Shown here piece by piece: positions 322-56,974 of a stretch of 64,000 bases of DNA. Numbering within the stretch: the first letter of the stretch is position 1; each line of letters begins with the position of its first letter. The translations under genes and the position numbers were made by a program. Source of the stretch: an uncultured Acidimicrobiia bacterium. Lineage in GTDB: Bacteria; Actinomycetota; Acidimicrobiia; IMCC26256; JAENVU01. The DNA lies in the NCBI GenBank assembly GCA_963701625.1, contig CAVPAT010000013.1, positions 611,215 through 675,214 of the forward strand, given 5' to 3'. Under the pieces are notes generated by a model. The model was not told the DNA's origin. It was given only the letters and a program-made list of their open reading frames with translations, and did no database searches.

Positions 322-405
322 TGGAGCCGGGAAGGAGATCCGAACTCCTGACCCGCTCATGACGAGCAAGGTCACACCGAGCGCTGTGCTAGCCACCGAA
401 ACCCC
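322..405 (-). pseudogene. tRNA-Thr(CGU)-derived pseudo-tRNA / att-like repeat (copy 1)
   Basis: Positions 322-366 match the 45-nt 3' half of the intact tRNA-Thr (anticodon loop to CCA) at 42/45. The 5' half is degenerate and I could not fold a canonical acceptor/D-arm. The anticodon loop CTCGTCA has a pyrimidine at position 37. Confidence 0.5.
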
Positions 406-4016: not shown

Positions 4017-4100
4017 TGGAGCCGGGAAGGAGATTCGAACTCCTGACCTGCTCATTACGAGCAAGCACCGCCTGAACGCTGCGCTACCCGACGAAACCCC
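4017..4100 (-). pseudogene. tRNA-Thr(CGU)-derived pseudo-tRNA / att-like repeat (copy 2)
   Basis: Positions 4017-4061 are 45/45 identical to the 3' half of the intact tRNA-Thr (5553-5597). The anticodon stem can still pair using two G-U pairs. The acceptor and D-arm are not canonical, with an apparent 1-nt loss in the acceptor. The 5' half resembles copy 1, not the real tRNA. Confidence 0.5.
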
Positions 4101-5507: not shown

Positions 5508-5552
5508 GAACTAGCCGCGCACCACGCGCAACCGCCACTCTCACGACGGAGT

Positions 5553-5628
5553 TGGAGCCGGGAAGGAGATTCGAACTCCTGACCTGCTCATTACGAGTGA
5601 GCTGCTCTGCCGACTGAGCTATCCCGGC
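5553..5628 (-). tRNA. tRNA-Thr (anticodon CGU)
   Basis: 76 nt, hand-folded: GCCGGGA TA GCTC AGTCGGCA GAGC A GCTCA CTCGTAA TGAGC AGGTC AGGAG TTCGAAT CTCCT TCCCGGC T CCA. All four stems are Watson-Crick and CCA is encoded. Confidence 0.93.
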
Positions 5629-12481: not shown

Positions 12482-14835
<2,354 letters not shown>

Positions 14836-14983: not shown

Positions 14984-16840
14984 TCAGGACTCGATGTGAT
15001 ACGGCACGGAGGTCACGACGGTGCCCTTGCGGAAGAGCAGCCGACCCTTGAGGAACAGGGCGCTCTGGTTGTGGAGCAGTTGCCCCCACCAGGATCCGAC
15101 GACGAACTCGGGGATCACGATCGTGACGATGTCGTTGCTCCGGGTCGCGTCGAGCTCGTCGACGAACCGCAGCACCGGCCGAGCGAGCTCGCGGTACGGC
15201 GAGAACACGATCTCGAGGGGCACGTCGATGCCGAATTGCGCCCACTGTTGGGCGATCTTCTCCTGCTCCTCCTCGTCGGAGACGACCGTGACGGCCAGCA
15301 GGCGTGACGGACGCATCGACCGGGCGTAGGCGAGCGCCTCGAGGACGCCCCGGTGCACCGAGCCGACCAGCACCACCACGGTGTGGTTCATCGGCCGGGA
15401 CTGGTAGTCGACGTCGGCCTTGAGTCCCTCCTCGACGCTCTTGTAGTGGGAGTTGATCGACTTGAACAGCACGATGATCGCTGGAATCACCACGATCGGG
15501 ACCCACGCGCCGCTGCTGAACTTCGTGACCGCGACGATCAGCAGGATGACCAGCGTCGTGAACGCGCCGACGCCGTTGAGCCACGCGTTGAACCGCCAAC
15601 GGGGCTCGCGTTCCTTCAGGTGGTGGCGGACCATGCCGGCCTGCGACAGCGTGAACGAGGTGAAGACGCCGACCGCGTAGAGCGGGATCAGCGCGTTGGT
15701 GATGCCGCCGAACGCGACGATGAGCGCGCCGGCCATGACCGCGAGGACGAGCACGCCGTTGGAGAACACGAGGCGGTCCCCCCGGTTCGCGAGCTGGCGG
15801 GGCAGGTAGCCGTCCGAGGCGATGATCGACGACAGCCGAGGGAAGTCGGCGTAGGCGGTGTTCGCCGCCAGGGTGAGGATCGCCGCCGTCGCGATCTGGA
15901 GGAGCAGGTACAGCGGACCGTCACCGAAGACGAGCAGGCCCATCTGCGAGAACACCGTCTGCTGCTCGCTCGGGTACGGGTGCACATGGTGCGCGAGCAC
16001 CGAGACCCCGAAGAACAACGAGCCGAGGATCAACCCCATCGCGACGAGCGTCTTGGCGGCGTTCTTCGACTCCGGCCGCCGGAACGCCGGGACACCGTTG
16101 GAGATCGCCTCGACTCCGGTCAGCGCGACCGCGCCCGAGGAGAAGCCCTTGAGGATCAGGAACAGGCGTCAGGGTCCCGCCCGTCTCGCGGAGGCCGCCC
16201 GCCTCCTCGAACGCGTGCTCGTCGAACGGCACGTGGCCGAGGTTCCCGAAGAAGCCTCCCACAGACCCCAGACGATCAGGAGCGTCAGCATCACGATGTA
16301 GATGTAGGTCGGCACCGCGAACACCCGGCCGGACTCCTTGACCCCCCGCAGGTTCGCCACCGTGATGAGTGCGATGAGCCCAAGCGCCAGCGCCACCCGA
16401 TGGTCGGCCACACTCCGCAACGACGGGATCGACACGATGGCGGCGACGCCGGCCGAGATCGACACCGCGACGGTCAGGATGTAGTCGACGAGCAACGATG
16501 CGCCCGCGACCAGCGACGGCATCTCGCCGAGGTTCTCGCGGCTCACGACATAGGAACCGCCGCCACTCGGGTAGGCGAAGATCGTCTGGCGGTACGACGT
16601 GACGACGATCGCCAGAATGATCGCGACCGCGATCGAGATCGGGACGAGCATGTCGAGCCCGAGGGCCAGACTCGACGCGCCCAGCGCGGTGACGAAGAGG
16701 ATCTCCTCGGTCGCGTAGGCCGTGGAGGAGATCGCGTCGGACGAGAACACCGCGAGCCCGATCGACTTGGGGATTCGCTGGTGCTCCTGCTCCGCCGAGG
16801 ACAGCGGCCGACCCACCAGAATGCGCTTGACGACGGACAC
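14984..16840 (-). CDS. APC-superfamily permease-like membrane protein (Rv2690c-like), two apparent frameshifts
   Basis: Three collinear frame segments. The N-terminus (VKRILVGRPLSS...AISSTAYATEEI) comes from the ORF 16169..17206 frame. The short middle segment (FFGNLGHVPFDEHAFEEAGGLRETGG) comes from the ORF 15921..16925 frame. The C-terminus (LFLILKGFSSGAVALTGVEAISNGVPAF... to the end of ORF 14984..16039) is the third segment. Switches occur at about 16250-16262 and about 16160-16175. The GTG start at 16840 is tentative. Confidence 0.75.
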
Positions 16841-16927
16841 CGCGGCTCCAGAGCTCGGACGAACCGGCCGAGTCTGACACGTCCGAGGCCTGCCGCCCGG
16901 GCTTCGGAGGACTAGGTTTTCCCACTC

Positions 16928-17593
16928 ATGCGAGTCGCCATCGCCGGAGCCGGCAACGTCGGACAACACGCCGCCACCTCGCTGTTCGAGGCCGGCCACG
17001 AGGTGCTGCTGATCGAGCAGAACCAGAACGTGGTGGACCGAGCGTCGCTCGCGTCGGGCATCGAGTGGTACGTCGGCGATGCGTGCGAGGTCGCGTCGCT
17101 CCGCGAGGCCGGGCTCGAAACGTGCGAGGTCCTGGTCGCAGCCACGGGCGACGACGAGGACAACCTCGTCGTGTCGCTGCTGGCCAAGCAGGAGTTCGCG
17201 ATCCACGCGTCATCGCGCGGGTGAACCATCCGAAGAACGAGTGGATGTTCACCGAGAATTGGGGCGTCGATCTCTTCGTCTCGACCCCGACGCTCATCAC
17301 CGCGATGGTCGAGGAAGCGGTCAGCGTCGGCAAGCTCGTCGAGATCCTGCGGTTCGAAGGTGGCCTCGCCCGCCTCGTCGAGGTGACACTTGCCGACGAC
17401 GCCAGCGTCGTCGGTCAGGCCATCAAGGACATCTCACTGCCGCGCGAGGCCACGATCGTCGCGATCCTGCCGCGACGAGCACCTCGAGGTACCTCGAGGG
17501 GAGACCCGATTCCAGCCGGGCGACGAAGTCCTGGCCCTGGTCACGCCGGACTCCGAAGATCAGATCCGCACCATTCTCACGGGCACGACCTGA
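16928..17593 (+). CDS. trkA: TrkA-family K+ uptake regulatory protein (two apparent frameshifts)
   Basis: MRVAIAGAGNVG Rossmann start, then PRVIARVNHPKNEWMF... in a second frame. The CC at 17203-17204 would need to be CCC. Then RDEHLEVPRGETRFQPGDEVLALV in a third frame, with the switch at about 17469-17472. Confidence 0.85.
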
Positions 17594-27113: not shown

Positions 27114-27814
27114 GCCGCGGCCCCCCGATGCGCCAACCCGAGTTCTCGGAGCACCTGGGCGGATGCCCGCTCGAGCGGCTCGGGAAGCCGGGTCGGTAGA
27201 ACCCCGGCGTCGACCGATCGCGCCACCGCGGCTCGCCAGGGAACCCGGGCCAGCACCGGGCGCCCGAGCACCTGGGCAATGTCGCTGGGACCCAACGATC
27301 GGCCTGGTTCCTGGACCACGACGATCCCGAACGCCCGGGCGGTCAGCACCGACGCCGCGGCGCGTCGCAAGGCGAGGTAGCACTCGCGCACGATGACGAT
27401 CGCCATGTCGGACACCTCGACGAGCGCCCGCGTCACCGCAGTGTCCGGGACCCCGGCGTCCACGACGGTCAGCGGACCGTCACGAAGCACGACCCCGAGT
27501 GCCGCGCCCGCTTCGGCCGCGGCGGCCGGTTCGAGGACACCGGGAACCCGACCGCGTGGAATCAGTGACAGACCCTGATCGATCGCCACCGCGAGCCGGT
27601 CGAGGGCGTCCGTCGGAGCCGTTGGACCGGCAGCCAACCAATCCCCGACTCCGGCATCGGGATCGGCACCGAGCCCGAGGACGGCAGGGAGGTCCCCCCG
27701 CAGGTCCACGAGCCGAACCGGATCCTGTGGACACGACGCGTGGAGCGCGATGGCGGCGGCGAGGACGGAGGTTCCGGAACCGCCCTTGGGCGACCAGAGG
27801 GTGACGAGGGACAT
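27110..27814 (-). CDS. CpaE/Ssd-like ParA/MinD-family ATPase (deviant Walker A)
   Basis: 234-aa ORF starting MSLVTLWSPKGGSGTSVLAAAIA. It is the first gene of the Tad-like operon. Confidence 0.75.
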   Translation of the reverse strand: MSLVTLWSPKGGSGTSVLAAAIALHASCPQDPVRLVDLRGDLPAVLGLGADPDAGVGDWLAAGPTAPTDALDRLAVAIDQGLSLIPRGRVPGVLEPAAAAEAGAALGVVLRDGPLTVVDAGVPDTAVTRALVEVSDMAIVIVRECYLALRRAAASVLTARAFGIVVVQEPGRSLGPSDIAQVLGRPVLARVPWRAAVARSVDAGVLPTRLPEPLERASAQVLRELGLAHRGAAA

Positions 27815-27981
27815 GGTCCGCTCCCGGAGTGCAGCGCGCTCGAAGCGCGACGAGGCAAGGGGTCCGGGAAGTGGACGGGGGAAGTGCCGACACTGTGACG
27901 TACCGGACGAAACCTGTCAAGAGGGATTGTCACGCGGGGTCCGGGTCGGCGACCGAACCAAGCCCGTAGTCTCTCGACGCG

Positions 27982-28776
27982 ATGAACTCGGCGGCCTTCT
28001 TCGACCTCGACAAGACGATCATCGCGAAGAGCTCGGTGCTCGCGTTCGGCAAGCCGTTCTACCGCGAGGGGCTGCTCTCGAAGCGGGCGATCGTCAAAAG
28101 CATGTACGCCCAGATCGTGTACATGCTCGTCGGCGCGGACGAAGAGAAGATGGAAGAGGTCCGCGAGGCGATGTTGTCGCTGACGAAGGGCTGGCAGCAG
28201 GACCACGTTGCCGCCATCGTCGCCGAGACCCTCGACGACGTCATCTCTCCCATCGTGTTCGCCGAGGCGCTCGAGCTGTTCGACGAGCACCGCGCCGCAG
28301 GGCGGGCAGTCGTCATCGTCTCGTCGTCACCCATCGAAGTCGTTCGCCCGCTCGGCGCGTACCTCGGGGCGGACGAAGTGATCGCGACGCGGGCCCGGAT
28401 CGACGAGAACGGCGCCTACTCGGGTGAGTTGGAGTTCTACGCGTACGGCGAACACAAGGAAACCGCGATGCGGGAGTACGCAGCTGAGCAAGGTGTCGAC
28501 CTCGACCAGTCGTTCGCCTACTCGGACTCGATCACCGACGTGCCGATGCTGTCCTGTGTCGGCCACCCCGTGGCGGTGAACCCCGACAAGGACCTGGCGA
28601 ACGAGGCTTCCGAACGCGGCTGGGAGGTGCGCCGCTTCGCTCGGCCGGTCCGGCTGCGCGACCGGGTTCACGTACCCCCGAAAGGCGCAACGATCACCGC
28701 GGGAACGATGGTGGCGGTCGGTGCCGCCGCCGCCGGCGTCTACGCCTGGTGGCGGCGGCACGCCACGCAGAGCTGA
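27982..28776 (+). CDS. HAD-IB family hydrolase (SerB-like, Rv3661-type) with C-terminal TM segment
   Basis: FFDLDKTII (motif I), VIVSSSP (motif II), YSDSITDVPML (motif IV). Confidence 0.85.
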   Translation: MNSAAFFDLDKTIIAKSSVLAFGKPFYREGLLSKRAIVKSMYAQIVYMLVGADEEKMEEVREAMLSLTKGWQQDHVAAIVAETLDDVISPIVFAEALELFDEHRAAGRAVVIVSSSPIEVVRPLGAYLGADEVIATRARIDENGAYSGELEFYAYGEHKETAMREYAAEQGVDLDQSFAYSDSITDVPMLSCVGHPVAVNPDKDLANEASERGWEVRRFARPVRLRDRVHVPPKGATITAGTMVAVGAAAAGVYAWWRRHATQS

Positions 28777-28798
28777 CCACGAGGTCCGGACGCGAGCC

Positions 28799-28822
28799 GA
28801 GCGGGCCATGGAAGGCCCGCTC
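28799..28822. terminator. GC-rich hairpin between convergent genes (candidate bidirectional terminator)
   Basis: Perfect 9-bp stem GAGCGGGCC / GGCCCGCTC with the 6-nt loop ATGGAA. It lies 23 nt after the HAD stop and 27 nt after the small minus-strand ORF. There is no U-tract. Confidence 0.4.
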
Positions 28823-28848
28823 GATCTCAACAACTTGTGGAACTCGGG

Positions 28849-28926
28849 TTATGCGTCGCCACGCACCTTGTACGCGACCGCTGCACCGAGGGCCAACACA
28901 ATCACGAGCAACAGGAGCTTCTTCAC
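28849..28926 (-). CDS. candidate 25-aa single-TM micro-protein
   Basis: GTG start preceded by GGAAAGGGA 6 nt upstream. It encodes VKKLLLLVIVLALGAAVAYKVRGDA. GC content is lower than the surroundings. No homology assessment was possible. Confidence 0.3.
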   Translation of the reverse strand: MKKLLLLVIVLALGAAVAYKVRGDA

Positions 28927-29038
28927 GGTGATCCCTTTCCGCCAGAGGGTGAACGTCGGAACCTTACCCGCGCCGTCCGGCACGCGTTCCCCTCGGCCCG
29001 CGGGCGGGTCGCAGACGGGCGCGTGACAGGATGGCTTC

Positions 29039-29132
29039 GGAGGTGAACGGGGTCTGGTGGCCCCCCTCGTCTTCAAAACGAGTGGGACGGGCGAACCCCG
29101 TCCGGTGGGTTCGATTCCTGCCACCTCCGCCA
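29039..29132 (+). tRNA. selC: tRNA-Sec (anticodon UCA)
   Basis: 94 nt, hand-folded. Anticodon loop CTTCAAA on a 5-bp stem. 6-bp D-stem GGGGTC/GGCCCC with the 4-nt loop TGGT, a Sec hallmark. 7-bp variable-arm stem GGACGGG/CCCGTCC. T-loop TTCGATT. Discriminator G plus CCA. The acceptor pairs only 7 bp as sequenced (A8 is opposite C). Confidence 0.85.
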
Positions 29133-29339
29133 CTCAACCTCCGCATCCCTTCCCCACGGGGCCGAAGGGAATGGCCGAGATTCCGAGGGACCCCGACGGA
29201 TTCCTCGACGACCCGCGAGAGATCGCGCTGACGGCTTCGACGCGGGCGTCGCTCCGGTTCCGGACGCATGAGGCGGTGGCCGGGTTGTCATCGGCGGCCA
29301 TAAGGTCGCCGGACACCCCCGATCAGGAGCGACAGCACC

Positions 29340-30323
29340 ATGGAGTACCGCCAGCTCGGCCGCACCGGCACCCGGGTCTCGGAGCTGTGCCTCGGCACGA
29401 TGACCTTCGGCAACGAGGCCGACGAGGCGACGAGCAAGGCAATCGTTGACCGGTTCGTCGATGCCGGTGGCAATTTCATCGACACCGCCAACGTCTACAG
29501 CCAGGGCGTCTCCGAGGAGATCACCGGGCGGGCGATCAAGGATCGGCGCGACGAGATCGTTCTTGCGACCAAAGCGCGCTTCGCGATGGGCGACGACACG
29601 AACGCAGTCGGTTCGTCGCGGCGTAACTTGCGCGCCGCATGCGAATCGTCGCTGCGGCGGCTCGGGACCGACTGGATCGACCTCTACCAAGTCCACATGT
29701 GGGACAACCGCACGCCGATCGAAGAGACGCTCTCGACGCTGAACGATCTCGTGCACGAGGGCAAGGTGCGGTACATCGGCGCGAGCAACTTCGCGGGCTG
29801 GCACCTCGCCAAGGCCCTCGGTGTGAGTGCTCTTCACGACTGGGAACCCTTCGTGTGCCTCCAACCCGAATACTCACTGGTGACGCGCGACGCGGAACGC
29901 GAGCTGATCCCGCTCTGTGAGAGCGAAGGCCTCGCCGTGATCCCGTGGAGTCCACTCGCCGGCGGGATCCTCACTGGCAAGTACTCCAAGGACCAGGAGT
30001 TCCCCGGCGGGACCCGTGGGGCGGACACCGAGAACCCCATCACGTTCACCTACCGCCTCGACGACCGTGCGTGGAACGTGGTCGACGCGGTGAAGGACGT
30101 CGCCGCGAAGACCGGGAAGACTGCGGCGCAGGTCGCCCTCAACTGGGTGCTGCACCGGCGCGGGATCACCGCCCCGATCATCGGTGCGCGCAACCTCACC
30201 CAGCTCGAGGACAACCTCGCCGCGACCGGATGGGAACTCGACGACGAGTCGCGGAAAGCGCTCAGCTGGGCCAGCGCGTTCCGGCTGGGATACCCGTACG
30301 AGTTCATCCAGTACGCCGGCTGA
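29340..30323 (+). CDS. aldo/keto reductase
   Basis: 327-aa [45 protein letters not shown] and [11 protein letters not shown] motifs. Confidence 0.9.
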
Positions 30324-30342
30324 GGATCAGGAGACGGACGTC

Positions 30343-31338
30343 ATGGAACTTCGGCAATTCGGCATGACGGGTATGCGAGTCACCGAGATGTGTCTCGGGG
30401 CGATGACCTTCGGGCGGGAAACGCCTGAGGACGAGAGCCGCCAGATCCTCGACCGCTATCTCGACGCGGGCGGCAACTTCATCGACACCGCGAACGTTTA
30501 CAACCGGGGCGCCTCCGAAGAGATCCTCGGGCGCGCGCTCGGTGCGCGACGAGACGACATCGTGCTCGCCACGAAGTGTCGGATGCCGATGGGCGGCGGA
30601 CCCAACGACGGTGGCGCTTCCCGGCGCGTGATCAGAGACCAGGTCGAGGCCTCGCTCCGGCGGCTCCAGACCGACTGGATCGACCTGTACCAGATCCACT
30701 GCTGGGATGCGTATACGCCGCTGGCCGAGACGCTCTCCACGCTCAACGACCTGGTCCACGAAGGAAAGGTCCGGTACCTCGGCGCGAGCAACTACACGGG
30801 CTGGCAACTCGCGACCGCGCTCGGTGTCTCACGTGAGCATGGGTGGGAGCCCTACGTCTCGCTCCAACCCCAGTATTCGCTCGTGACCCGCGACATCGAG
30901 CGTGAGCTGCTGCCCTTGGCCGAATACGCCGGCCTGGCGGTGCTCCCTTGGAGTCCGCTCGGGGGCGGGCTGCTCTCGGGGAAGTACCGGCCCGGCGAGG
31001 CCCCACCCGCCGAGACCCGGGGCGCAGACAGCACGCCATCGTCGGTCCTGATGCGGCTCCGACTGGACCGGGAGCGGAACTTCACCGTCGCCCAGGCCGT
31101 CCACGACCTCGCGGCCGACCTGGGCAAGACGATGGCCCAGGTCGCGCTCAACTGGGTGCTCCACCGTCCCGGCGTCACCGCACCGATCCTCGGGGCGCGA
31201 ACAGTGGAGCAGATCGAGGACAACCTCGGCGCGATCGGCTGGCAGTTGGACGCCGACGCGCTGGCCCGCCTCGAGGACGCCAGCGCGATCGAGGCCGGCT
31301 ACCCGTACGACTTCATCGACTGGATCCACGCACGCTGA
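30343..31338 (+). CDS. aldo/keto reductase (tandem paralog)
   Basis: Starts [24 protein letters not shown] at ATG 30343. Same motif set ([29 protein letters not shown]). Confidence 0.9.
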
Positions 31339-39481: not shown

Positions 39482-40264
39482 CTACTTGCAGGTGGCAATG
39501 CCGCCGTCGACGGGGATGACCGCGCCGGTCACGTAGGTCGACGCGGGGCCGGCGAGGTAGACGGCGATCCCGGCCATGTCGGCCGGCTTGCCGATGCGCT
39601 TCATCGGTGCAGACGCGGCGATCGCGTCGCCGAACGCGTCCAGCGTCGCCGCCATCATCTTGGACTCGAACGGACCCGGCGCAATCGCGTTGACCGTGAT
39701 CTTCGGCGCGAGTTGGCTCGCGAGGTGACGGGTCAGCTGGTGGACCCCCGCCTTCGCGGTCGAATACGAGTAGGTCTCCATCGCGGGCACCTGGATTCCG
39801 TCGATCGACCCGACGTTGATCACCCGGGCAGGATCTCCATCGGTCGCGGACGCGTCGAGGAGCGGGCGCAGGAAACGCGTCAGGTGGAACGGCCCCTTCA
39901 CGTTGAGGTCCAGCACCCGGTCCCAGGCCGCGTCGTCGTGATCCGCGAGCGGCGCGCCCCACGTGGCGCCCGCGTTGTTGATCAGGACGTGCAGGCGGTC
40001 CTCGCGGGAAACGATCTCGTCGGCCAGCCGCCGGCACTCGGCTTCGGTCGAGAGGTCCGCGGGGAGGCCGATGCACTCGCCGTGCTCACTGAGACGTGTC
40101 GCGACCTCGGCGCACACCTCGGCCTTGCGCGACGACACATAGACCTTGACCCCGGCCCGGACGTAGGCCTCGGCGATCATCAGGCCGATCCCCCGCGTCC
40201 CGCCGGTGATCAGCGCGGTCTTGCCACGGATCGCGAACAGTTCGTCCAGCACGTCGTCGGTCAC
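39482..40264 (-). CDS. SDR family oxidoreductase
   Basis: GTG start at 40264 after [19 protein letters not shown] cofactor motif, NNAG, and the YSTAK catalytic motif. Confidence 0.88.
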
Positions 40265-40353
40265 GGGTTCCTCCTCGGATGAGACCCGGAAGGTACCCGG
40301 GACGCCACCAAGGCCGACGACTCGACTCCGATGCGGCGCCGAGAAGCCGCTGG

Positions 40354-41805
<1,452 letters not shown>

Positions 41806-41806
<1 letters not shown>

Positions 41807-43458
41807 CACGAACCTCCGTGGCGGTAGACCGGTGCCGGCTCCGGATCGAGCGGCGTCGCATCGAGGACGGCGTCGCTCGCCCGCTCGGCCAGCATCATCA
41901 CCGGCGCGTAGATGTTGCCGTTGGTCACGTAGCGCATCGACGACGCGTCGACCACACGCAGCCCGTCGACCCCGTGCACTCGGAACGAATCCGGGTCGAT
42001 GGCGCCCGAGTCCGGCCGACCCAACCGCGCCGTACATGAAGGATGGAGTGCGGTCTCGGCGTCCCGCGCCACCCAGTCGAGGATCTCGGCGTCGGTCTGC
42101 ACCGCCGGACCCGGCGAGAGTTCGCCACCGTCATACGGTGCGAACGCCGGCTGGGCGAGGATCGTGCGGGCCGCCCGCACCGTCTCGATCCATTCCTGCC
42201 GGTCGGTTTCGGTCGAGAGGTAGTTGCACACCATCGCCGGCTTGGTTCGGGGATCGCGGTTCCGGGCGTGGACCGAGCCGCGCGAGTCCGAATACATCGG
42301 TCCCACGTGCACCTGGTAGCCGTGGGCACCCGCGCCGTCGGGGACCGTGCCGTCGTACCGGATCGCGATCGGCAAGAAGTGGAACATGACGTTCGGGTAG
42401 GCGACGTCCTCGTTGCTGCGGATGAAACCGCCGGCCTCGAAGTGGTTCGTCGCCCCCGGGCCCCGGCGGGCCAGCCACTGCAAACCGATGAGCGGTCGCC
42501 GCCACATCGCCAGGTTCGGTGCCATGGAAACCGGCTGCGTGCACGCGTGCTGGATGTAGACCTCGAGGTGATCCTGGAGGTGTTCGCCGACCGCGGGGAC
42601 ATCGGCGAGGACGGGGACGCCGAGCGCGCCGAGCCGATCGGCGTCCCCGATGCCAGAGAGTTCGAGCACCTGCGGGCTGTTGATCGCGCCACCGCAGAGG
42701 ATCACCTCGCCCGCGTCGATCGACTCGAGGGCGCCGCCGCGCACGCGTTCCACCTCGACGCCGACCGCCCGCGTTCCCTCGAACCGCACCTTCGTCGTCA
42801 ACACGCGGGTCCGCACCTCGAGGTTGGGTCGATACATCACCGGGTGGAGGTAGGCGCGCGCCGCACTCAGCCGCCGGCCGCGCCGGATGTTGCGATCGAA
42901 ACGGGCGAAGCCCTCCTGGCGGTACCCGTTGACATCATCGGTGAGCGGGTAACCCGCCTCCTGCACCGCCGCGAAGAACGCGTCGAACAAGGGGCTGGCG
43001 GCCGGTCCCCGTTCCAGCGCGAGCGGCCCTTGACCACCCCGGAAATCGTCGGGCCCGGCGAGGCATGTCTCCATCCGCTTGAAGTAAGGGAGGCAGTGCG
43101 CGTAGCTCCACCGTTCCATGCCGGGATCTGCGGCCCAACGGTCGAAGTCCGCCGGGTTGCCCCGCTGGAAGATCATCCCGTTGATGCTGCTGGAGCCCCC
43201 GAGCACCTTGCCGCGAGCGTGATACACCCGGCGGCCACCCATGTGCGGCTCCGGTTCCGTCTCGTACTTCCAGTCGTAGAAGCGCGAGCCGATCGGAAAG
43301 GAGAACGCCGCCGGCATGTGGATGAACACGTCGAACCGATAGTCGGGTCGACCCGCTTCGAGGACCAGGACCCGATTCGCGGGATCCGCCGAGAGCCGGT
43401 TCGCGAGCACACACCCCGCCGACCCGCCGCCGACGATCACGAAATCGAAGTGCGTCAT
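41806..43458 (-). CDS. betA: choline dehydrogenase (GMC oxidoreductase)
   Basis: 550 aa. [19 protein letters not shown]...[17 protein letters not shown]...[13 protein letters not shown] closely parallels E. coli BetA as I recall it. Confidence 0.88.
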
Positions 43459-50532: not shown

Positions 50533-52164
50533 GTGCGAGCCCTCAGAGCGCTTTTGCTCCTACTTGTCGCGATTGCGCTCGCCGGCGCCGCCTGCTCATC
50601 GACCGAGGCGACCGACGCGAGTTCCGGTGCCGGTGCACCGGCACCGGCCGCGACTCCCGCCGGGAAGTGCGATATCGAGCGGCCTGCACCACCGGAGGTC
50701 GAGCCGGTCGCCGGCGTCGAGGGCGACTACACGATGACTTCGTTCGACGGCACCGAGATCCGACTCCACTGGTACCCGCTCGACCGTGAAGCCCCCACGA
50801 TCCTGATGGGCCCGGGCTGGAGCCAGCCCGGCGCGACCAAGGACAGCGGCACCGGGCTCTTCGGCGACTCCCCGATCAGCGTGCTCCAGGAGCAGGACTA
50901 CCACGTCCTCACGTGGGACCCGCGGGGCTTCGGCGAATCGACCGGCACGATCACCGTCGACAGCGCAACCGCGGAAGGCAAGGACGTTCAGCGCATCGTC
51001 GACTGGGTGGCCACCCGACCCGGGGTCCAACTCGACCGCCCCGGCGACCCGCGCTTCGGCATGGTCGGCGGTTCCTATGGTGGCGGCATCCAGCTCATCA
51101 CTGCGGCAATCGACTGCCGCGTGGACGCCATCGTTCCGACGATCGCGTGGCACTCTCTCAGCACCAGCCTGTACAAGGCCGGCACGGTCAAGCTCGGATG
51201 GTCGCAGCTGCTCTACACCGCCGCCGCGGGGCGGAACCTCGACCCGCACATCACCTCCGCGTACGAGTCCGGCCGCGACCGGGGCGTCGTCGCACCCGAG
51301 GATCGACGATGGTTCCGGTCCCGCGGCCCCGACGCGCTGGTACGCCGGATCACCGCGCCGACGCTGTTCATCCAGGGAACCGTGGACACCCTGTTCACCC
51401 TTGATGAAGCCGTGACCAACTACGGCATCCTTCGGGACGAGAAGGTACCGACCTCGATGCTCTGGTATTGCGGGGGCCACGGCGTCTGTCTGGCTGACCC
51501 GGGCGACGAAGCACGCGTCGCCGAAGCCACCAACGTATGGCTGCGGCGCTACCTCCGTGGCGACACCGCGACCGATACCGGCCCGCGCGTCGAAGTCCTC
51601 GACCAACGCGGCGACCGGTACACCGCGACCGACTGGCCCATCGCGACGGCAATGCGCCTGCGCGCCGAGGGTTCGGGCAGCCTGGAACTCGTCGAGAACG
51701 GCGGTGCCGGTCCCGCCACGCCGAAGACCGGGTCGACGAATCCGATTGGGAGCGCGGCTGCAGGCATCACGCCGGCACGAGCGGAGAACGCCGTCAACGT
51801 CGAGATCCGGGCCACGAGCGCCGGGACCAGCGTCGGCGCCCCGCGTCTCACGATCGTCTACTCGGGCACTACCCCTCCCGGCGATCGACCGACCCGCGTC
51901 TTCGCCCAACTCGTCGACGACGAGACCGGCCTGGTCCTCGGCAACCAGATCACGCCGATCCCGGTGGTCCTCGACGGAGCGACGCACCGACTGCGGATCC
52001 CCCTCGAGATGATCGGCCACACCTTCGCCGAGGGACAGTCGGTGACGCTGCAGATCGTCGGGAACACCGTCGCGTATGCACCACCGCGATTCGGTGGCGC
52101 GATCGAGTTCACGAAGATCGCGATCGAACTTCCCATCGCCAAGGGGCTCACGCCGGTCGACTGA
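50533..52164 (+). CDS. CocE/NonD (S15) family serine hydrolase, lipoprotein
   Basis: GTG start; lipobox LAGAAC. GWSQPG...DPRGFGESTG...GGSYGG nucleophile elbow. C-terminal beta-sandwich-like region. Confidence 0.7.
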   Translation: MRALRALLLLLVAIALAGAACSSTEATDASSGAGAPAPAATPAGKCDIERPAPPEVEPVAGVEGDYTMTSFDGTEIRLHWYPLDREAPTILMGPGWSQPGATKDSGTGLFGDSPISVLQEQDYHVLTWDPRGFGESTGTITVDSATAEGKDVQRIVDWVATRPGVQLDRPGDPRFGMVGGSYGGGIQLITAAIDCRVDAIVPTIAWHSLSTSLYKAGTVKLGWSQLLYTAAAGRNLDPHITSAYESGRDRGVVAPEDRRWFRSRGPDALVRRITAPTLFIQGTVDTLFTLDEAVTNYGILRDEKVPTSMLWYCGGHGVCLADPGDEARVAEATNVWLRRYLRGDTATDTGPRVEVLDQRGDRYTATDWPIATAMRLRAEGSGSLELVENGGAGPATPKTGSTNPIGSAAAGITPARAENAVNVEIRATSAGTSVGAPRLTIVYSGTTPPGDRPTRVFAQLVDDETGLVLGNQITPIPVVLDGATHRLRIPLEMIGHTFAEGQSVTLQIVGNTVAYAPPRFGGAIEFTKIAIELPIAKGLTPVD

Positions 52165-52247
52165 ACCGCATCCCCCTGGTGGTGAATTTGTCCGGAGCGG
52201 GTAGAGTCGACCGTTCTCGATACGAGTGTCACGCTGGGGAGCGAACC

Positions 52248-54846
52248 ATGTTGCACCGTCTTCGTCGCAGCAACGCGGCCATTGCCGCGATCGCGCTGTC
52301 CGTCGTCATGCTCGGGTGTCGACCGGTGCACCCGCTGCGGCCACCGGGTGCGGTCGACGTCGACCGGGCCGGGTACATCCTTCCGCCGGGAAACTACGGC
52401 GGGTTCCCGACGACCGCGAACTCGCTCGATCAACTCCCCCTGTACGACGCGTTGACGCCGCTCCGCGGCAACGTCACCGACGATGATCTCGACCGAAACT
52501 TCCTGCCGGAGAACTTCGAGCCTGTCGGCGCGACCACCGAGGAACCGACCGGCCGACCCGGCACCACCGTCCTCTACGACTCGTACGGCATCCCGCACGT
52601 CCATGGCGAGACCCGTGAGGACCTCGCGTTCGGCGCCGGTTGGGTCACCGCACGCGATCGGGGACTGCTGCTGCAACTCGGTCGCGGTCCGTCCCGCGCG
52701 GCGGTCGCCGACGTTCCCGGCATCAATGCGTTCGGGCTCGTCACCAGCGGGCAGTCCTTCGTCCCGAGCGCCGCGGCCGAGCAGCTGGTGACCGACCAGG
52801 TCCAGCTGATCATCGACACGTACGGCGACAAGGGACGCGAGATGGTCCGCGAGATGCAGGCCGAGGCCGACGGCATGACCGCGTACTTCCAGTACGCGGG
52901 AATCCCGGAACCGCCGGCGACGGTGAACGACGTCATCGCAGTCACGGCGTTCATCGGCTCCATCTTCGGCGCCGGCGGCGGAGCCGAGGCCAGCAACGCG
53001 GACTACCTCGCGAAGCTCCAAGCCGGCTTGGGAGCCGAACGCGGTCGTCAGGCTTGGGAAGACACGATGCTCTTCGACGATCCCGAAGCGCCGACGACGA
53101 TCCGGGAGCGTTTCGACTATCCCGTCCTCACCGGGGGCGCGGTCACCGGCTCGGTCGGCATCGACGCGGACTCGATCGTCTCGCTCGATCCCCGGGCTTC
53201 TGGCGCCGGGGCTCTGGTCTCGGCGAGTTCCGCGGCTCCGGACCCCGGCGAACAACCCACATACCCCGCCGCCGGTCCCGTCCCGAAGAAGCAGGCGTCG
53301 AACTTCCTGGTCGTCAACCCCTGGCGGTCGCGGACGCGCAACACCCTCGCCGTCATGGGTCCCCAACTCGGCTATTACTACCCCGAGATCGTGCAGCAGA
53401 TGCACCTCTCCGGTCCCGGCATCGAGGCCCAAGGAATCGTCGTGCCGGCCGCGGCGATGTACCTCCTCATCGGACGGACCGCCGACTACGCCTGGAGCCT
53501 GACCTCGGCGAGTCAGGACGTGCGCGACGTCTTCGCCGAACAACTCTGCAACCCGGACGGGAGCACCCCGACCCGAGCCTCGAATCACTACATGTTCAAC
53601 GGAGTGTGTCGACCGTTCGAGACCTTCGATGCCGGTACCCTGAACGGCACGCCCATCCGCTACCCGGTCTCGGTCCATGGTCCGGTCATCGGTACCGCCA
53701 CTTCGGACGGCGCTCCGATCGCACTCACCCGCAAGCGCTCCACCTTCGGGCGCGACGGACTCAACCTGGCTGCGCTCCGGGACATGACCAACGGCGAAGC
53801 GAGTACCCCCGAGAAGTTCTGGACCGCGGCCAACCAGTTCGGATTCACCTTCAACTGGGCGTATGCATCTCGGAAGACGACGGCGTATTTCGCTTCGGGG
53901 TACCTGCCCGTTCGAGCGCCCGGACTCGACCGGCGCCTTCCCACCAATGGCTCCGGCGACTACGAGTGGCGCGGCTTTCTCACGCGCGATCAGCACCCGC
54001 ACTCCGTGGGCGGCCCGGACGGGTTGCTGCTCAACTGGAACAACCAGTCCGCACCCGGCTTCATGCACGGTGACGACGAGCCGTACGGCTCGGTCCACCG
54101 GGTCGAACTCTTCGACCAGTACCCCCGCAAGGTGACGTTGGCCGACGACGCGAGCGTCATGAACCGGGCCGCGACCGAGGACGTGCGCTCGCCGGTCTGG
54201 CCCGTGGTCAGCGATGTCCTCCACACCGGTTCGGCACCCAGCCCGCTGGCCGCCGAAGTCGTCGACCCTACTCGACGACTGGGTGGCCCGTGACGCGCCG
54301 ATTCTCGACGCCGACAACAGCGGCGAGTACGACGAAGCCGGTCCGACCGTCATGAACGCGATCTGGAATCCGATCGCGGATGCCGTCGTGCGGCCCGTGT
54401 TCGGCGATCTCACCAGCGAGCTCAACCGGGTGCGTGGCTTGGGGTCCCTCAGCGGCGAATCGATCGTGGACAAGGACCTTCGTACGCTGCTCGGCCGGAA
54501 GGTCGCCGGGAAGTTCCAGTTGCAGTACTGCGGCAACGGTTCGCTCGACGCGTGTCGGAGCGCGCTGTGGTCGGCGGTGGAGCAGGCGGCCGACGGTCTC
54601 GCCGCGTCGCAGGGAACGACCGATCCGGCGACCTGGCGGAGTTCGGCTCGCCGCCAGGGCTTCACCCCCGGACTCATCAGCGACACGATGCGCGCCACCA
54701 ACCGGCCGACGTTCCAGCAGGTCATCGAGTTCGTCGGCGGAGGCGGGCACCCGGGCCCGTGCTCGCGCCCGGGGAATCCGCCCTGGTGGGCGAACGGTGG
54801 CAAGGGTTGCGAACGCCACCACGAGCACGGGTCACGGGACCGGTAG
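52248..54846 (+). CDS. penicillin acylase family Ntn-hydrolase (apparent frameshift)
   Basis: ATG at 52248 after GGGGAG, with a signal/lipobox-like VVMLGC. YDSYGIPHVHGET. The putative Ntn nucleophile is the S in KKQASNFLVV. The C-terminal part (LLDDWVARDAP...NRPTFQQVIEF) is in ORF 54214..54846. An extra C appears in the CCC run at 54266-54268. Confidence 0.8.
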
Positions 54847-54876: not shown

Positions 54877-55924
54877 GTGGCCCGGATGATCGAAGAACCG
54901 GCGATCCGCGACGATCTCGCCCGCGCACACCGCGCCGTCCTCGAGCATTGGGCCCAACCGGGCGGTTGGTGGACCGGCGCCGAACGACTGGCGATCGTCA
55001 CCGAAAGCCGAACCGCGCGTGCCGCCGCACCGCTCCCTCCCTGGGTGGCTCCAAGCACCGTCGACGGTCTCGTACCGACGGGGCATCCGCTCCCGCCCGC
55101 GGCTATCGACGCGATCTGGCGGCTGACCAACCACCCCGCCACCCTCACCGCCGAGACCTACATGGCCACGATCGAGCGGGGACTCTCACCCCTGCATTAC
55201 GTGGAACTCGTCGGCATCGTCGCCACCGCCGCCGCCCTCGACACGTTCCGGACGGCCCTCGGGCTCCCGCCGTACCAACTGCCCGCACCGGCACCGGGCG
55301 AACCGAGCGGCGACACGCCCACTGGCCTCGCAGTGACGACCCACTGGGTGCCGACGATCCCCGCCGCAACGGTGCACGTCCTGACCGCGCTCGAGCGCGG
55401 ATGCCGGCGGCAACGAGGCGCGGGCCCGCCTCGCGACCGCGCAGTACGTCCCGGCCGAGGCGCTCATCGGCGACCTCGCGTGGGGTCGCGAATCGCTCGA
55501 TCGTCGCCAGATCGAGCTGGTCGCAGCCCGCACCTCAGCGCTCAACGAGTGCTTCTACTGAACTGCTTCCCATTCGCTGTTGCTCGGTCTGAGCAGCCTC
55601 AACGCCGGCACCGAGGTCGATGTCCGGATCGTCGGCGCCGACGGAACCGGTGACGGTGGCGTCGCGCACGGCGCGACACTCGTCGCGTTCGTCGAAGCGG
55701 TGCATGCCGGCGACGCCGAGCAACTCGATCTCGCGCGGACGGAAGTCCAGGCCGCGTGCGGGAGCGCCGGGCTGGTCGACGCCGCCGCGGTGTGCGCCAA
55801 CTTCCAGATGATGAACCGCATCGCCGACGGCACCGGGACGCCCCTCGACGAGATGGCGGTGGCGCCGTCGGAGGAGTTGCGCGAGACCCTCGGACTCGAC
55901 GCGTACCCGAGCCGGCGACTCTGA
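54877..55924 (+). CDS. AhpD/carboxymuconolactone-decarboxylase-like protein, candidate selenoprotein (in-frame TGA 55559-55561; one apparent frameshift at about 55398)
   Basis: Frame-2 codons 55550-55573 read C-F-Y-TGA-T-A-S-H, which is the AhpD core CxxCxxxH with TGA at the second Cys. The same frame continues for 121 codons (ORF 55580..55924). The N-terminal 170 aa come from ORF 54877..55653. Confidence 0.6.
55579..55597 (+). promoter_or_regulatory. bacterial SECIS-like hairpin
   Basis: GUUGCUC-GGUCU-GAGCAGC: a 7-bp stem (one G-U pair) with a 5-nt loop, starting 17 nt after the TGA. The GGUC loop resembles the E. coli fdhF SECIS apex as I recall it. Confidence 0.5.
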
Positions 55925-55935
55925 CCAAAGCTGCA

Positions 55936-56929
55936 TCAACTGCCGAGCGAGCCCGCGAGCTTGGCGTCGAGTTCACCGATCGAGAGCCAACCAGCGAATC
56001 GAATCTCGCAACGTCTCCTCGACCGGGCGCCACTGCACCCCGAGCACATCTGAGTTGCGCGACTGTCGAAGGGCACGGCGCGACTCGCGAGAGGTCATCG
56101 CCTCGAGGGTCAGCGGAAAATCGAACGGCCGGACCCGTTTGACCAGGTCGCCGCCCCGACCCGCCAGCCGGAGCAACCGGCCGGGCATCGGCACGCTACG
56201 CCGTCGGACCCCGGTGACCCGGGTGAGCGTGTCGTGCATCTGGGACCAGGTGAGAAAGGTGCCGCCGAACATCCAGCGCCCGGGTTGACCGAGCGCGTGC
56301 TCGATACCGAGCGCGACGTCGCGCACATCGACCACTCCGGTTCCCGAACTCGTCCGGGGTGGCGTTCGGATCCACACCACCAGCGCCTCATGATTCACGC
56401 TCACGCCGGGTCCGTCCGGGCCCAGTACTCCGGACGGGTAGACGATTGCTAGCGGCGCACCGGCGGCCTGGAACTCCCTCGCCACCCGTTCGGCGCCGAT
56501 CTTGGAACGCGTGTACGAGCCGCCCTCATCCATCAGCGACGTCTCGGGGGTGATCGTTCCGGTGTCGATGCGGAACACCGTCGTGCTCGACACTGTGACG
56601 GCGGGAAGCGACCCGCGCCGCGGCTTCGCCCAGGACGTTGCGCGTACCTCCGACGTTGATCGCCTCGGTCTGTTCCGAGTCACTCGCGGCGAGCGACACC
56701 TGCGCAGCCGCGTGGACCACCGCGTCGCAGCCGTCGACGGCCTTGGCCACGCTCGGACGATCAGTCACATCTCCGACTATCACCTCGACGTCGACACCGA
56801 CGAGAGCGGGACGCGCGCCACCTTCGCCGGATCCCGGACGAGCAAGCGCACCGCCCGTCCGCTCCGCACGAGCTCCGCGGCGGTATGCGATCCGACGAAC
56901 CCGGTTCCCCCGGTCACGAGCACCGTCAT
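55936..56929 (-). pseudogene. NAD-dependent epimerase/dehydratase family gene, heavily frameshifted as sequenced
   Basis: MTVLVTGGTGFVGSH starts at ATG 56929 (ORF 56780..56962). Switch at GGG 56808-56810 to ALVGVDVEVIVGDVTD...AVVHAAA. Switch at about 56611-56614 to VSSTTVF...YTRSKIGAE...VDVRDVA (ORF 55973..56683). Further shifts are probable near 56060 and 55975, with a plausible tail GELDAKLAGSLGS ending at 55936. Confidence 0.7.
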
Positions 56930-56974
56930 GGCCGGATGCTGGCACAGCCGAGGCCGGCGCACGACCCGCGCGGT

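What the first reader, a model, noticed from the sequence alone, without database searches (positions are those of the whole stretch)
54877..55924. In-frame TGA at the second Cys of a CxxCxxxH redox motif, with a SECIS-like hairpin: candidate AhpD-like selenoprotein
Seen in sequence:
- Codons 55541-55573 read L-N-E-C-F-Y-TGA-T-A-S-H.
- The TGA (55559-55561) sits where AhpD/CMD-family proteins carry the second cysteine of their catalytic C-x-x-C-x-x-x-H motif.
- The same frame stays open for 121 more codons, to 55924.
- 17 nt downstream a hairpin GUUGCUC-GGUCU-GAGCAGC (55579-55597) has a GGUC apical loop. It resembles the E. coli fdhF SECIS apex.
- A tRNA-Sec gene lies at 29039-29132.

Established knowledge: AhpD-like proteins are among the reported prokaryotic selenoprotein families, with Sec replacing a redox Cys.

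Caveats: the same gene needs one frameshift correction near 55398, and the assembly is indel-prone. A TGC/TGT-to-TGA difference is a substitution, which is not the error type seen elsewhere in this window. No selA, selB or selD is in the window. Standard gene callers would split this gene into fragments.
Basis: partly seen in the sequence, partly recalled or inferred. Interest (0 to 1): 0.75.

Follow-up and report, generated by a model that had tools for sequence, protein, structure and literature searches.

The report
Known AhpD-related selenoprotein gene, frameshifted
This is an ordinary copy of an already catalogued bacterial selenoprotein gene (an AhpD-related redox protein with a Cys-x-x-selenocysteine active site and its own recoding hairpin), broken in this assembly by one extra base that is probably a sequencing error.

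Summary
Codons 55541-55573 read L-N-E-C-F-Y-TGA-T-A-S-H, the frame stays open to 55924, a 7-bp hairpin with a GGUCU loop lies at 55579-55597, and a tRNA-Sec gene lies at 29039-29132.

NCBIfam has an equivalog model named after this motif: NF041238 "AhpD_rel_CFYUT", alkylhydroperoxidase-related (seleno)protein. After one base is removed, the conceptual protein scores 341.6 bits (cut-off 175) over profile positions 1-356 of 357.

In 80 related loci, mostly Acidimicrobiia MAGs, all 79 motif instances I found have TGA at this position. Full-length Cys-type homologs and solved CMD/AhpD structures place a Cys there.

The hairpin is paired in 98.8% of cells across 70 distinct sequences. Synonymous variation almost vanishes in the five codons that encode it, which points to constraint on the RNA, as expected for a bacterial SECIS.

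"AhpD-like, CxxU" selenoproteins have been in the literature since 2005.

The gene carries a +1 insertion near 55393. At least five other frameshifts disrupt conserved genes in this window, so an assembly error is the likelier cause (about 0.7). No selA, selB or selD was found in the window.

Interest is low.

The parts
54886..55392 (+). N-terminal part of the gene, read in frame 1. The likely start is ATG 54886; GTG 54877 is the alternative. It encodes an N-terminal domain with no Pfam hit.
   Evidence: NF041238 profile positions 1-159 at 149.6 bits. It aligns with 15 homologs from their Met onward. There is weak similarity to the C-terminal half of CMD/AhpD structures (E 0.013).
55392..55393 (+). 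Site of a single extra base (+1 insertion) inside the 12-nt palindrome GCGCTCGAGCGC. It shifts the reading frame from frame 1 to frame 2.
   Evidence: The window has GCG CTC G AGC GCG where the closest relative L003 has GCG CTG AGC GCG. Removing one base restores A-L-S-A, as in L003.
55394..55558 (+). Continuation of the gene in frame 2, up to the Cys-Phe-Tyr that precedes the Sec codon. This is the start of the CMD domain.
   Evidence: Pfam CMD PF02627 at 29.6 bits against a cut-off of 23. tblastn of the L003 ORF matches 55394-55558 in frame 2 at 73% identity.
55559..55561 (+). In-frame TGA, the selenocysteine codon of the C-F-Y-U-T-A-S-H active-site motif.
   Evidence: TGA occupies this codon in 79 of 79 motif instances in the related loci. 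It aligns with Cys in PDB CMD/AhpD proteins and in Cys-type homologs.
55579..55597 (+). SECIS hairpin: a 7-bp stem with a GGUCU apical loop. It lies within the codons for L-L-G-L-S-S.
   Evidence: The fold is -9.7 kcal/mol. 98.8% of cells are paired in 70 distinct sequences, and two pairs show compensatory changes. Codon entropy is 0-0.6 bits at codons +7 to +11, against mostly 1.1-2.4 bits at conserved four- and six-fold codons elsewhere. Cys-type homologs lack this peptide.
55562..55924 (+). C-terminal 120 codons of the same protein (the rest of the CMD domain), followed by the true stop TGA at 55922-55924.
   Evidence: NF041238 profile positions 195-356 at 191.8 bits for the frame-2 part alone. 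The corrected whole protein scores 341.6 bits in one stretch.
29039..29132 (+). tRNA-Sec (selC), anticodon UCA. It lies 26 kb upstream and is the decoding tRNA required for the UGA.
   Evidence: ARAGORN. Rfam RF01852 at 68.5 bits against a gathering score of 47.

Best explanation
The locus 54886-55924 encodes an ortholog of the known selenoprotein family NCBIfam NF041238 (AhpD_rel_CFYUT, 'alkylhydroperoxidase-related (seleno)protein'). The literature calls these 'AhpD-like, CxxU' selenoproteins. The host is an Acidimicrobiia-type actinobacterium.

Shown here:
- UGA 55559-55561 sits at the second redox position of a C-x-x-C-x-x-x-H motif of a CMD/AhpD-fold domain.
- Every close relative examined has TGA there.
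- A hairpin with a GGUCU loop lies 17 nt downstream and is kept in place by selection on the RNA.
- The genome carries tRNA-Sec.

Inferred from established knowledge of bacterial Sec decoding:
- SelB-GTP-Sec-tRNA(Sec) binds the hairpin while the ribosome is at the UGA and inserts selenocysteine, giving one protein of about 345 residues.
- The C-F-Y-U pair cycles between a selenol/thiol state and a selenenylsulfide. By analogy with AhpD, the protein acts as a peroxide-related or disulfide oxidoreductase. Its substrate is unknown.

The single extra base at about 55393 is most likely an assembly error (about 0.7). In that case the gene is intact in the organism.
For: -: both halves hit NF041238.
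- the 1-nt-corrected protein scores 341.6 bits against a cut-off of 175, covering profile positions 1-356 of 357.
- the 120 best database homologs are all about 220-260 aa, and the 15 aligned all stop at ...NECFY, that is, they were truncated by gene callers at the TGA. Several are named '(seleno)protein'.
- 80 genome loci give 79 of 79 TGA instances, with the frame open for 113-142 codons afterwards in all full-length copies.
- the hairpin is conserved, with compensatory pairs and near-zero synonymous variation.
- the U aligns with Cys.
- tRNA-Sec is present.
- AhpD-like CxxU selenoproteins were published in 2005, 2008 and 2022.
- For the error reading of the frameshift, split Pfam profiles show further frameshifts: H+-PPase, aldehyde dehydrogenase and an epimerase split across three frames.
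Against: - As assembled, the ORF is interrupted by a frameshift, and no independent read-level or short-read evidence covers that site.
- The insertion is not in a homopolymer.
- selA, selB and selD are not in the window.
- No experiment shows Sec insertion for this family member.
- The hairpin's folding energy is unremarkable against shuffles.
- No conserved gene neighbour points to a substrate.
Confidence: 0.92

Rival explanations
1. The frameshift is genuine. This copy is a recently inactivated pseudogene of the selenoprotein family in an organism that still keeps selC.
For: The assembled sequence does carry the extra base. It lies in a non-homopolymer context, which is not the classic long-read error site. 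Two independent Logan contigs match another 1.1 kb of the window with no indels, so the consensus is not uniformly poor.
Against: Apart from this one base, the gene is perfect: a full-length NF041238 alignment at 341.6 bits, intact TGA, an intact consensus SECIS loop and stem, and no other stops. At least five further frameshifts hit conserved genes such as H+-PPase and aldehyde dehydrogenase within 64 kb. That pattern fits assembly error better than simultaneous decay of many genes.
Confidence: 0.25
2. The TGA is an ordinary stop, or a substitution error for TGC/TGT. On this reading the locus encodes separate proteins or a Cys-type AhpD-like protein, not a selenoprotein.
For: TGA is the normal stop in this genome; the gene itself ends in TGA at 55922. 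Cys-type homologs of the wider family exist.
Against: All 79 motif instances in the closest relatives have TGA at this codon. A stop there would cut the CMD fold inside its active-site motif. The window has the Sec-type signature after the motif: the LLGLS peptide and hairpin, which Cys-type members lack. tRNA-Sec is present.
Confidence: 0.02
3. The extra base is real and is bypassed by programmed +1 ribosomal frameshifting. The gene would then need two recoding events: a +1 frameshift and UGA-Sec.
For: Only that the shift needed is +1, and that both flanking frames are otherwise intact.
Against: None of the 80 related loci needs a shift there; they read straight through in one frame. No known +1 shift signal, such as a slippery codon followed by a rare codon or stop, is apparent in GCGCTCGAGCGC. 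Frameshifts are scattered over unrelated genes in the window.
Confidence: 0.01

Closest known systems
NCBIfam NF041238.1 AhpD_rel_CFYUT, alkylhydroperoxidase-related (seleno)protein
   Same: Same architecture of about 350 aa: an N-terminal domain plus a CMD domain. Same C-F-Y-U-T motif with TGA, and a full-length match at 341.6 bits against a cut-off of 175. The nearest members are Acidimicrobiia MAG proteins at 64% identity or less.
   Different: This copy has one extra base that breaks the frame at about 55393. It has Ala-Ser instead of the commoner Thr-Ser or Ser-Ala after U-T. In the stem it has a U-G and a U-A pair where the consensus has C-G and U-G.
'AhpD-like protein' (COG2128, CxxU) selenoprotein family of Zhang, Fomenko and Gladyshev 2005 (PMC1088965) and Zhang and Gladyshev 2008 (PMC2398784, 'AhpD-like 1/2')
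   Same: An AhpD/CMD-related protein with a CxxU redox motif, a SECIS hairpin just downstream of the UGA with a G in a small apical loop, and abundance in marine metagenomes.
   Different: I could not map this gene to the papers' individual sequences, nor decide between their sub-families 1 and 2. The published families are defined by COG or Pfam hit, not by the CFYUT equivalog model.
Cys-type full-length homologs (P0265, P0304, P0374, P0331, P0323) and solved 'peroxidase-related' CMD proteins (2pfx, 3c1l, 6k40 AhpD)
   Same: The same fold family, with the same motif at the same place: CFYC, CVYC or CYYC followed by x-x-x-H. Identity over the full length is 36-42% for the Cys-type homologs.
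   Different: They have Cys where the window has Sec. They lack the LLGLS peptide and hairpin after the motif. The full-length Cys-type homologs that include the N-terminal region (P0265, P0304, P0374) carry an extra N-terminal C-x-L-C that the Sec type lacks. The PDB proteins are single-domain, about 190 aa.
E. coli fdhF SECIS
   Same: A hairpin downstream of the UGA whose apical loop contains GGUC followed by U. The fdhF sequence was verified in 5419 of 5426 E. coli genomes.
   Different: Here GGUC lies at nt 28-31 counted from the U of UGA, against 22-25 in fdhF. The stem sequence is unrelated, and I saw no counterpart of the bulged U17 (the U17 feature is from memory, not tested).

Membership tests
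NCBIfam NF041238 AhpD_rel_CFYUT (seleno)protein | Whole-protein HMM score at or above the curated cut-off (175 bits), with full-length coverage. | tested here: met
   341.6 bits in a single stretch over profile positions 1-356 of 357, after removing one base and reading U as C. The frame-2 fragment alone already scores 191.8 bits.
NCBIfam NF041238 AhpD_rel_CFYUT (seleno)protein | The C-F-Y-U-T motif, with the U encoded by an in-frame TGA. | tested here: met
   Codons 55550-55564 read C-F-Y-TGA-T. The same is seen in 79 of 79 motif instances in relatives.
NCBIfam NF041238 AhpD_rel_CFYUT (seleno)protein | A reading frame uninterrupted apart from the Sec codon. | tested here: not met
   A +1 insertion at about 55393 in the assembled sequence. 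Whether it exists in the organism is unresolved.
CMD / AhpD superfamily (Pfam PF02627) | A domain hit above the gathering score, with the catalytic C-x-x-C-x-x-x-H aligned. | tested here: met
   PF02627 at 29.6 bits against 23. The motif aligns with CFYC...H of 2pfx, CVYC...H of 6k40 and CYYC...H of 3c1l.
TIGR01926 peroxidase-related enzyme / TIGR00778 AhpD core domain | A score at or above the curated cut-offs (81.8 and 27.8 bits). | tested here: not met
   38.3 and 22.5 bits. The gene is related to these families but is not a member of them.
Mycobacterial-type AhpD (AhpC reductase) | Reduction of AhpC, with an ahpC gene adjacent. | tested here: not met
   No peroxiredoxin gene lies next to the gene in the window. 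There is no conserved neighbour across the 80 loci; only one clade has a DyP peroxidase next door. Enzyme activity cannot be tested here.
Bacterial SECIS element | A stem-loop closely downstream of the UGA, with a small apical loop containing G. The bSECISearch-type criteria (16-37 nt from UGA to loop, G in the first loop positions) are recalled from memory. | tested here: met
   A 7-bp stem, a GGUCU loop and 24 nt between the UGA and the loop. [quoted passage not shown]
Bacterial SECIS element | Evolutionary conservation of the structure beyond what the protein requires. | tested here: met
   98.8% of cells are paired, 2 of 7 pairs have compensatory changes, and 0 of 500 shuffles reach the observed score. 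Codon entropy is 0.00-0.60 bits in the hairpin codons, against mostly 1.1-2.4 bits at conserved four- and six-fold codons elsewhere. The hairpin peptide is absent from Cys-type homologs.
Bacterial SECIS element | Binding by SelB and UGA read-through that depends on the hairpin. | not testable with these tools
   This needs a reporter or binding assay. No Rfam model matched, and I know of no general bacterial SECIS model in Rfam.
Sec-decoding trait of the host | tRNA-Sec (selC) is present. | tested here: met
   29039-29132, found by ARAGORN and by RF01852 at 68.5 bits.
Sec-decoding trait of the host | selA, selB and selD are present in the genome. | tested here: inconclusive
   None among about 45 coding-like ORFs of the 64-kb window. 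The rest of the genome is not available.

The most novel reading that the evidence does not exclude
The extra base at about 55393 is real and the gene is still expressed. That would make it a selenoprotein mRNA needing two recoding events: a programmed +1 frameshift inside the palindrome GCGCTCGAGCGC, then UGA-Sec 166 nt later. A milder version: the frameshift is real and records the loss of a selenoprotein gene in a lineage that still carries selC.
Probability: 0.01. Interest if true: 0.6.

Novelty: already known. Interest (0 to 1): 0.12.

Why it matters
It matters mainly for annotation. Standard gene callers split or truncate this gene: the 15 closest database homologs I aligned all stop at ...CFY, and the 120 best hits are all of truncated length (about 220-260 aa). 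The window therefore illustrates a systematic mis-annotation of a widespread Acidimicrobiia selenoprotein. It also shows that this organism very probably decodes Sec.

It does not open a new question. The family, its CxxU motif and its SECIS have been described since 2005, and NCBI has a dedicated HMM for it.

One small by-product may be useful. The Sec-type members are marked by an invariant L-L-G-L-S peptide, which is the SECIS hairpin read as protein, and Cys-type members lack it. This could serve as a quick discriminator between the two types.

Tried and rejected
- Exact-protein look-ups for the post-TGA ORF (55580-55924) and for the frameshifted 258-aa ORF found nothing. No independent assembly covers the frameshift site.
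- A look-up of the HAD hydrolase gene found two Logan contigs, 100% and 99.7% identical to 27633-29036. The organism therefore occurs in runs SRR36096862 and SRR36096855, but those contigs cover no frameshift site.
- A second large protein search used the H+-PPase junction, hoping for a same-strain short-read version. The best hit was 93% identical, with nothing near-identical. It confirmed that the PPase is one gene split by a frameshift. It also showed many truncated PPases on long contigs in other assemblies.
- An Rfam E-value scan of 55480-55720 gave only noise.
- A tRNA scan of 60 related loci found no tRNA-Sec near the gene.
- Synteny was examined by tblastn of ORFs from the related loci against the window and by clustering of neighbouring ORFs. 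No neighbour is conserved across the family.
I used the exact post-TGA peptide instead.
- I did not run a structure prediction.
- I considered and rejected the idea that the in-frame TGA in the amino-acid permease (16169-16171) is a second Sec codon. The peptide just upstream of it is Arg-rich out-of-frame sequence, so this is a local frameshift.

Full report
**1. The observation**

The window has 68% G+C.

- In frame 2, codons 55541-55573 read L-N-E-C-F-Y-TGA-T-A-S-H. The frame then continues for 120 sense codons to a stop at 55922-55924.
- The hairpin is GUUGCUC (55579-55585), GGUCU (55586-55590), GAGCAGC (55591-55597). It starts 17 nt after the TGA and folds at -9.7 kcal/mol.
- tRNA-Sec at 29039-29132 is called by ARAGORN and by Rfam RF01852 at 68.5 bits against a gathering score of 47.

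One qualification applies. Judged from this window alone, the hairpin is not beyond chance in such G+C-rich sequence. Its z-score is -1.5 for the 25-nt core and about 0 for the 47-nt and 82-nt stretches.

**2. What the gene is**

Pfam places a CMD domain (PF02627, 29.6 bits against a cut-off of 23) on the frame-2 part.

NCBIfam is decisive. Both halves hit one equivalog model, NF041238.1 [quoted passage not shown]. The model's name is the window's motif. With one base removed and U read as C, the 345-aa conceptual protein scores 341.6 bits (cut-off 175) in one stretch over profile positions 1-356 of 357.

A search of 5.8 billion proteins returned 302 relatives. The best 120 are all about 220-260 aa long and cover about 63-65% of the query. 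In the 15 I aligned, every one ends in ...N-E/D-C-F-Y, so gene callers stopped them at the same TGA. Several carry the NCBI name "alkylhydroperoxidase-related (seleno)protein". The nearest is 64% identical (an Acidimicrobiia MAG). The H+-PPase gene of the window is 93% identical to an Acidimicrobiales protein, so the host is an Acidimicrobiia-type actinobacterium.

**3. The TGA is the native state of the family**

A scan of 185,579 species genomes gave 207 confirmed loci, of which 80 were fetched. They are mostly Acidimicrobiia, "Candidatus Poriferisodalis" and Microthrix-related MAGs, plus single Myxococcota and Chthoniobacterales bins.

- In 76 loci a strict pattern found C-F-Y-TGA-[TS]. Three more have C-F-Y-TGA-A. 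One (L076) is itself frameshifted at the motif.
- In total, 79 of 79 motif instances under the strict pattern are TGA and none is Cys. The frame stays open for 113-142 codons afterwards in full-length copies.

An exhaustive HMMER search with the exact post-TGA peptide found mostly C-terminal fragments of 110-155 aa, which are the other half of the split genes. It also found a few full-length Cys-type homologs. In these the window's U aligns with Cys: CFYC, CVYC or CAYC. The same holds for solved structures: 2pfx has CFYC, 6k40 (AhpD) has CVYC and 3c1l has CYYC, each followed by x-x-x-H.

**4. The hairpin is a conserved RNA element**

In 70 distinct sequences aligned without gaps from the TGA, the 7-bp stem (columns 21-27 with 33-39) forms standard pairs in 98.8% of cells.

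- Two pairs show compensatory changes. One changes G-C to U-A or U-G. The other changes G-C to A-U once, with nine G-U intermediates.
- No shuffle out of 500 reaches the observed pairing or covariation score. Sliding the partner by 1-3 nt drops pairing to 29-52%.
- The loop is GGUCU in nearly all sequences.

Because the hairpin lies in coding sequence, I measured synonymous codon entropy. For the five codons that form it (L-L-G-L-S, codons +7 to +11) the values are 0.27, 0.00, 0.10, 0.24 and 0.60 bits. Conserved Leu, Ala, Arg, Thr and Ser codons just upstream give 1.1-2.4 bits. Leu is always CUC and Gly almost always GGU, even across genomes of very different G+C content. That is selection on the RNA.

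The Cys-type homologs have unrelated residues at these positions (M-L-R-S-S, I-L-R-V-E and others). The LLGLS peptide therefore exists only where a SECIS is needed.

The loop shares GGUC(U) with the E. coli fdhF SECIS, whose sequence I verified in 5419 of 5426 E. coli genomes. It sits 6 nt further from the UGA here. [quoted passage not shown] The numeric bSECISearch limits I quote (16-37 nt from UGA to loop) are from memory.

**5. The frameshift**

Homologs align with frame 1 up to L-T-A-L (ending at 55392) and with frame 2 from S-A-D-A (starting at 55394). At the DNA level the window has GCG CTC G AGC GCG where the closest relative has GCG CTG AGC GCG. Removing one base restores A-L-S-A. The event is a +1 insertion, it is not in a homopolymer, and it lies inside a perfect 12-nt palindrome.

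Is it real? I could not find any independent sequence covering the site. Indirect evidence favours error, because other genes in the window are split in the same way:

- H+-PPase: Pfam profile positions 1-463 in one frame and 463-645 in another. It is 93% identical to an intact relative across the junction.
- Aldehyde dehydrogenase: positions 7-408 and 400-461 in different frames.
- The epimerase just downstream of the target: three frames.
- Probably also the penicillin amidase just upstream, whose profile stops at position 458 of 675 at the ORF end.
- Probably also an amino-acid permease.

That makes at least five confirmed frameshifts in 64 kb, hitting well-conserved genes. Meanwhile the target gene is otherwise flawless.

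On the other side, two Logan contigs from other runs match 1.1 kb of the window with no indels, so the consensus is not uniformly bad. I put assembly error at about 0.7 and a genuine pseudogene at about 0.25.

**6. Sec machinery**

About 45 coding-like ORFs were scanned against Pfam. None has SelA, SelB or SelD domains.

selC lies between a HAD hydrolase and two aldo/keto reductase genes. The rest of the genome is unavailable, so this defining feature stays open. The presence of a high-scoring tRNA-Sec, together with a family in which TGA is universal, makes Sec decoding very likely.

**7. Mechanism**

Shown here:
- The UGA sits at the second redox position of a CMD/AhpD-type C-x-x-C-x-x-x-H motif.
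- A conserved hairpin lies downstream.
- tRNA-Sec is present.

Inferred from the established bacterial pathway:
- SelB-GTP-Sec-tRNA(Sec) binds the hairpin loop and delivers Sec at the UGA, giving one protein of about 37 kDa.

Inferred by analogy with AhpD (from my own knowledge of M. tuberculosis AhpD, where the second Cys of the motif is the nucleophile):
- The selenolate attacks an oxidised partner or a peroxide.
- The neighbouring Cys resolves it to a selenenylsulfide.

The partner is unknown. There is no ahpC nearby and no neighbour conserved across the family. Only the Poriferisodalis clade has a divergent DyP-type peroxidase next door.

The N-terminal domain of about 190 aa has no Pfam hit. 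It weakly resembles the C-terminal half of the same fold (E 0.013), which suggests a degenerate internal duplication.

**8. Comparison with what is known**

"AhpD-like protein, COG2128, CXXU" was reported as a new selenoprotein family from the Sargasso Sea in 2005, with 27 sequences and a SECIS figure (PMC1088965). In the GOS data it ranked among the most abundant families: AhpD-like 1 with 299 sequences and AhpD-like 2 with 70 (PMC2398784). It is listed in the 2022 review (PMC9312934) and in BSepDB 2026, and NCBI's annotation pipeline has a dedicated HMM.

The window's gene passes every sequence-level membership test except an uninterrupted frame. It does not reach the cut-offs of the neighbouring families TIGR01926 and TIGR00778.

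**9. Verdict**

The finding is an ordinary ortholog of an already catalogued selenoprotein family, carrying a probable assembly frameshift. Novelty: already known. Interest: 0.12.

Noticed in passing
window 12485-14835 (-), 39485-42130 and 40357-40644 (-), 55973-56962 (-), 51537-54846 (+), 14987-17209 (-): Many conserved genes are split between reading frames: H+-PPase at about 13230, aldehyde dehydrogenase at about 40550, an NAD-epimerase across three frames at about 56700 and 56790, probably penicillin amidase at about 54250, and an amino-acid permease at about 16170-16240. That is roughly one frameshift per 8-10 kb, which looks like an unpolished long-read assembly.
   Followed up: partly
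window 322-366, 4017-4061, 5553-5597 (with 1-366 similar to 5232-5597): The 3' 45 nt of tRNA-Thr(CGU) occur three times as direct repeats. ARAGORN calls a tRNA at 4017-4092, but Rfam does not, and only its 3' half matches the bona fide tRNA at 5553-5628. Each repeat sits next to a hydrolase/guanylate-cyclase-type gene. This looks like att-site remnants of elements integrated at tRNA-Thr, or a tandem segmental duplication.
   Followed up: partly
window 27566-27568 (+): A second in-frame TGA is flanked on both sides (122 and 109 codons) by coding-like composition...TAWNQ-TGA-QTLIDRH.... Neither side has a Pfam or NCBIfam hit, and there is no Cys or redox motif nearby. It may be an antisense shadow or two adjacent small genes.
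   Followed up: partly
window 29039-29132 and flanks 27982-31338: tRNA-Sec stands alone between a HAD-family hydrolase and two paralogous aldo/keto reductase genes that are 71% identical at the DNA level. No selA, selB or selD is adjacent. A Logan contig from run SRR36096862 matches 27873-29036 exactly and ends 2 nt before the tRNA.
   Followed up: partly
L061:452 and 2588; L065:5414 and 6667; L070:4531 and 6667: Some 'Candidatus Poriferisodalis'/Acidimicrobiales genomes carry two copies of the CFYUT selenoprotein gene within about 1.3-2.1 kb. Each copy has its own TGA and hairpin. One copy in L061 and one in L070 has only 31 open codons after the TGA, so it is truncated or frameshifted.
   Followed up: no
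L050:4803-5981 (-) and about 30 related loci: In the Poriferisodalis clade a DyP-type peroxidase gene (PF20628, 113 bits) lies immediately upstream of the selenoprotein gene and is transcribed divergently. This hints at a link to peroxide chemistry. The arrangement is not conserved in other clades or in the window.
   Followed up: partly
alignment A3, columns about 52-60 (P0265, P0304, P0374): Full-length Cys-type homologs carry an additional C-x-L-C-x-x-R-K motif in the N-terminal domain. The Sec-type subfamily, including the window's gene, has this deleted. The two types therefore differ in more than the U/C position.
   Followed up: no
L076:6634-6700: One related locus (an Acidimicrobiales MAG) reads ...LNECLLNDRPH... 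instead of ...LNECFY-TGA. The cause is a frameshift right at the motif, which shows that other assemblies of this family also carry indels.
   Followed up: no
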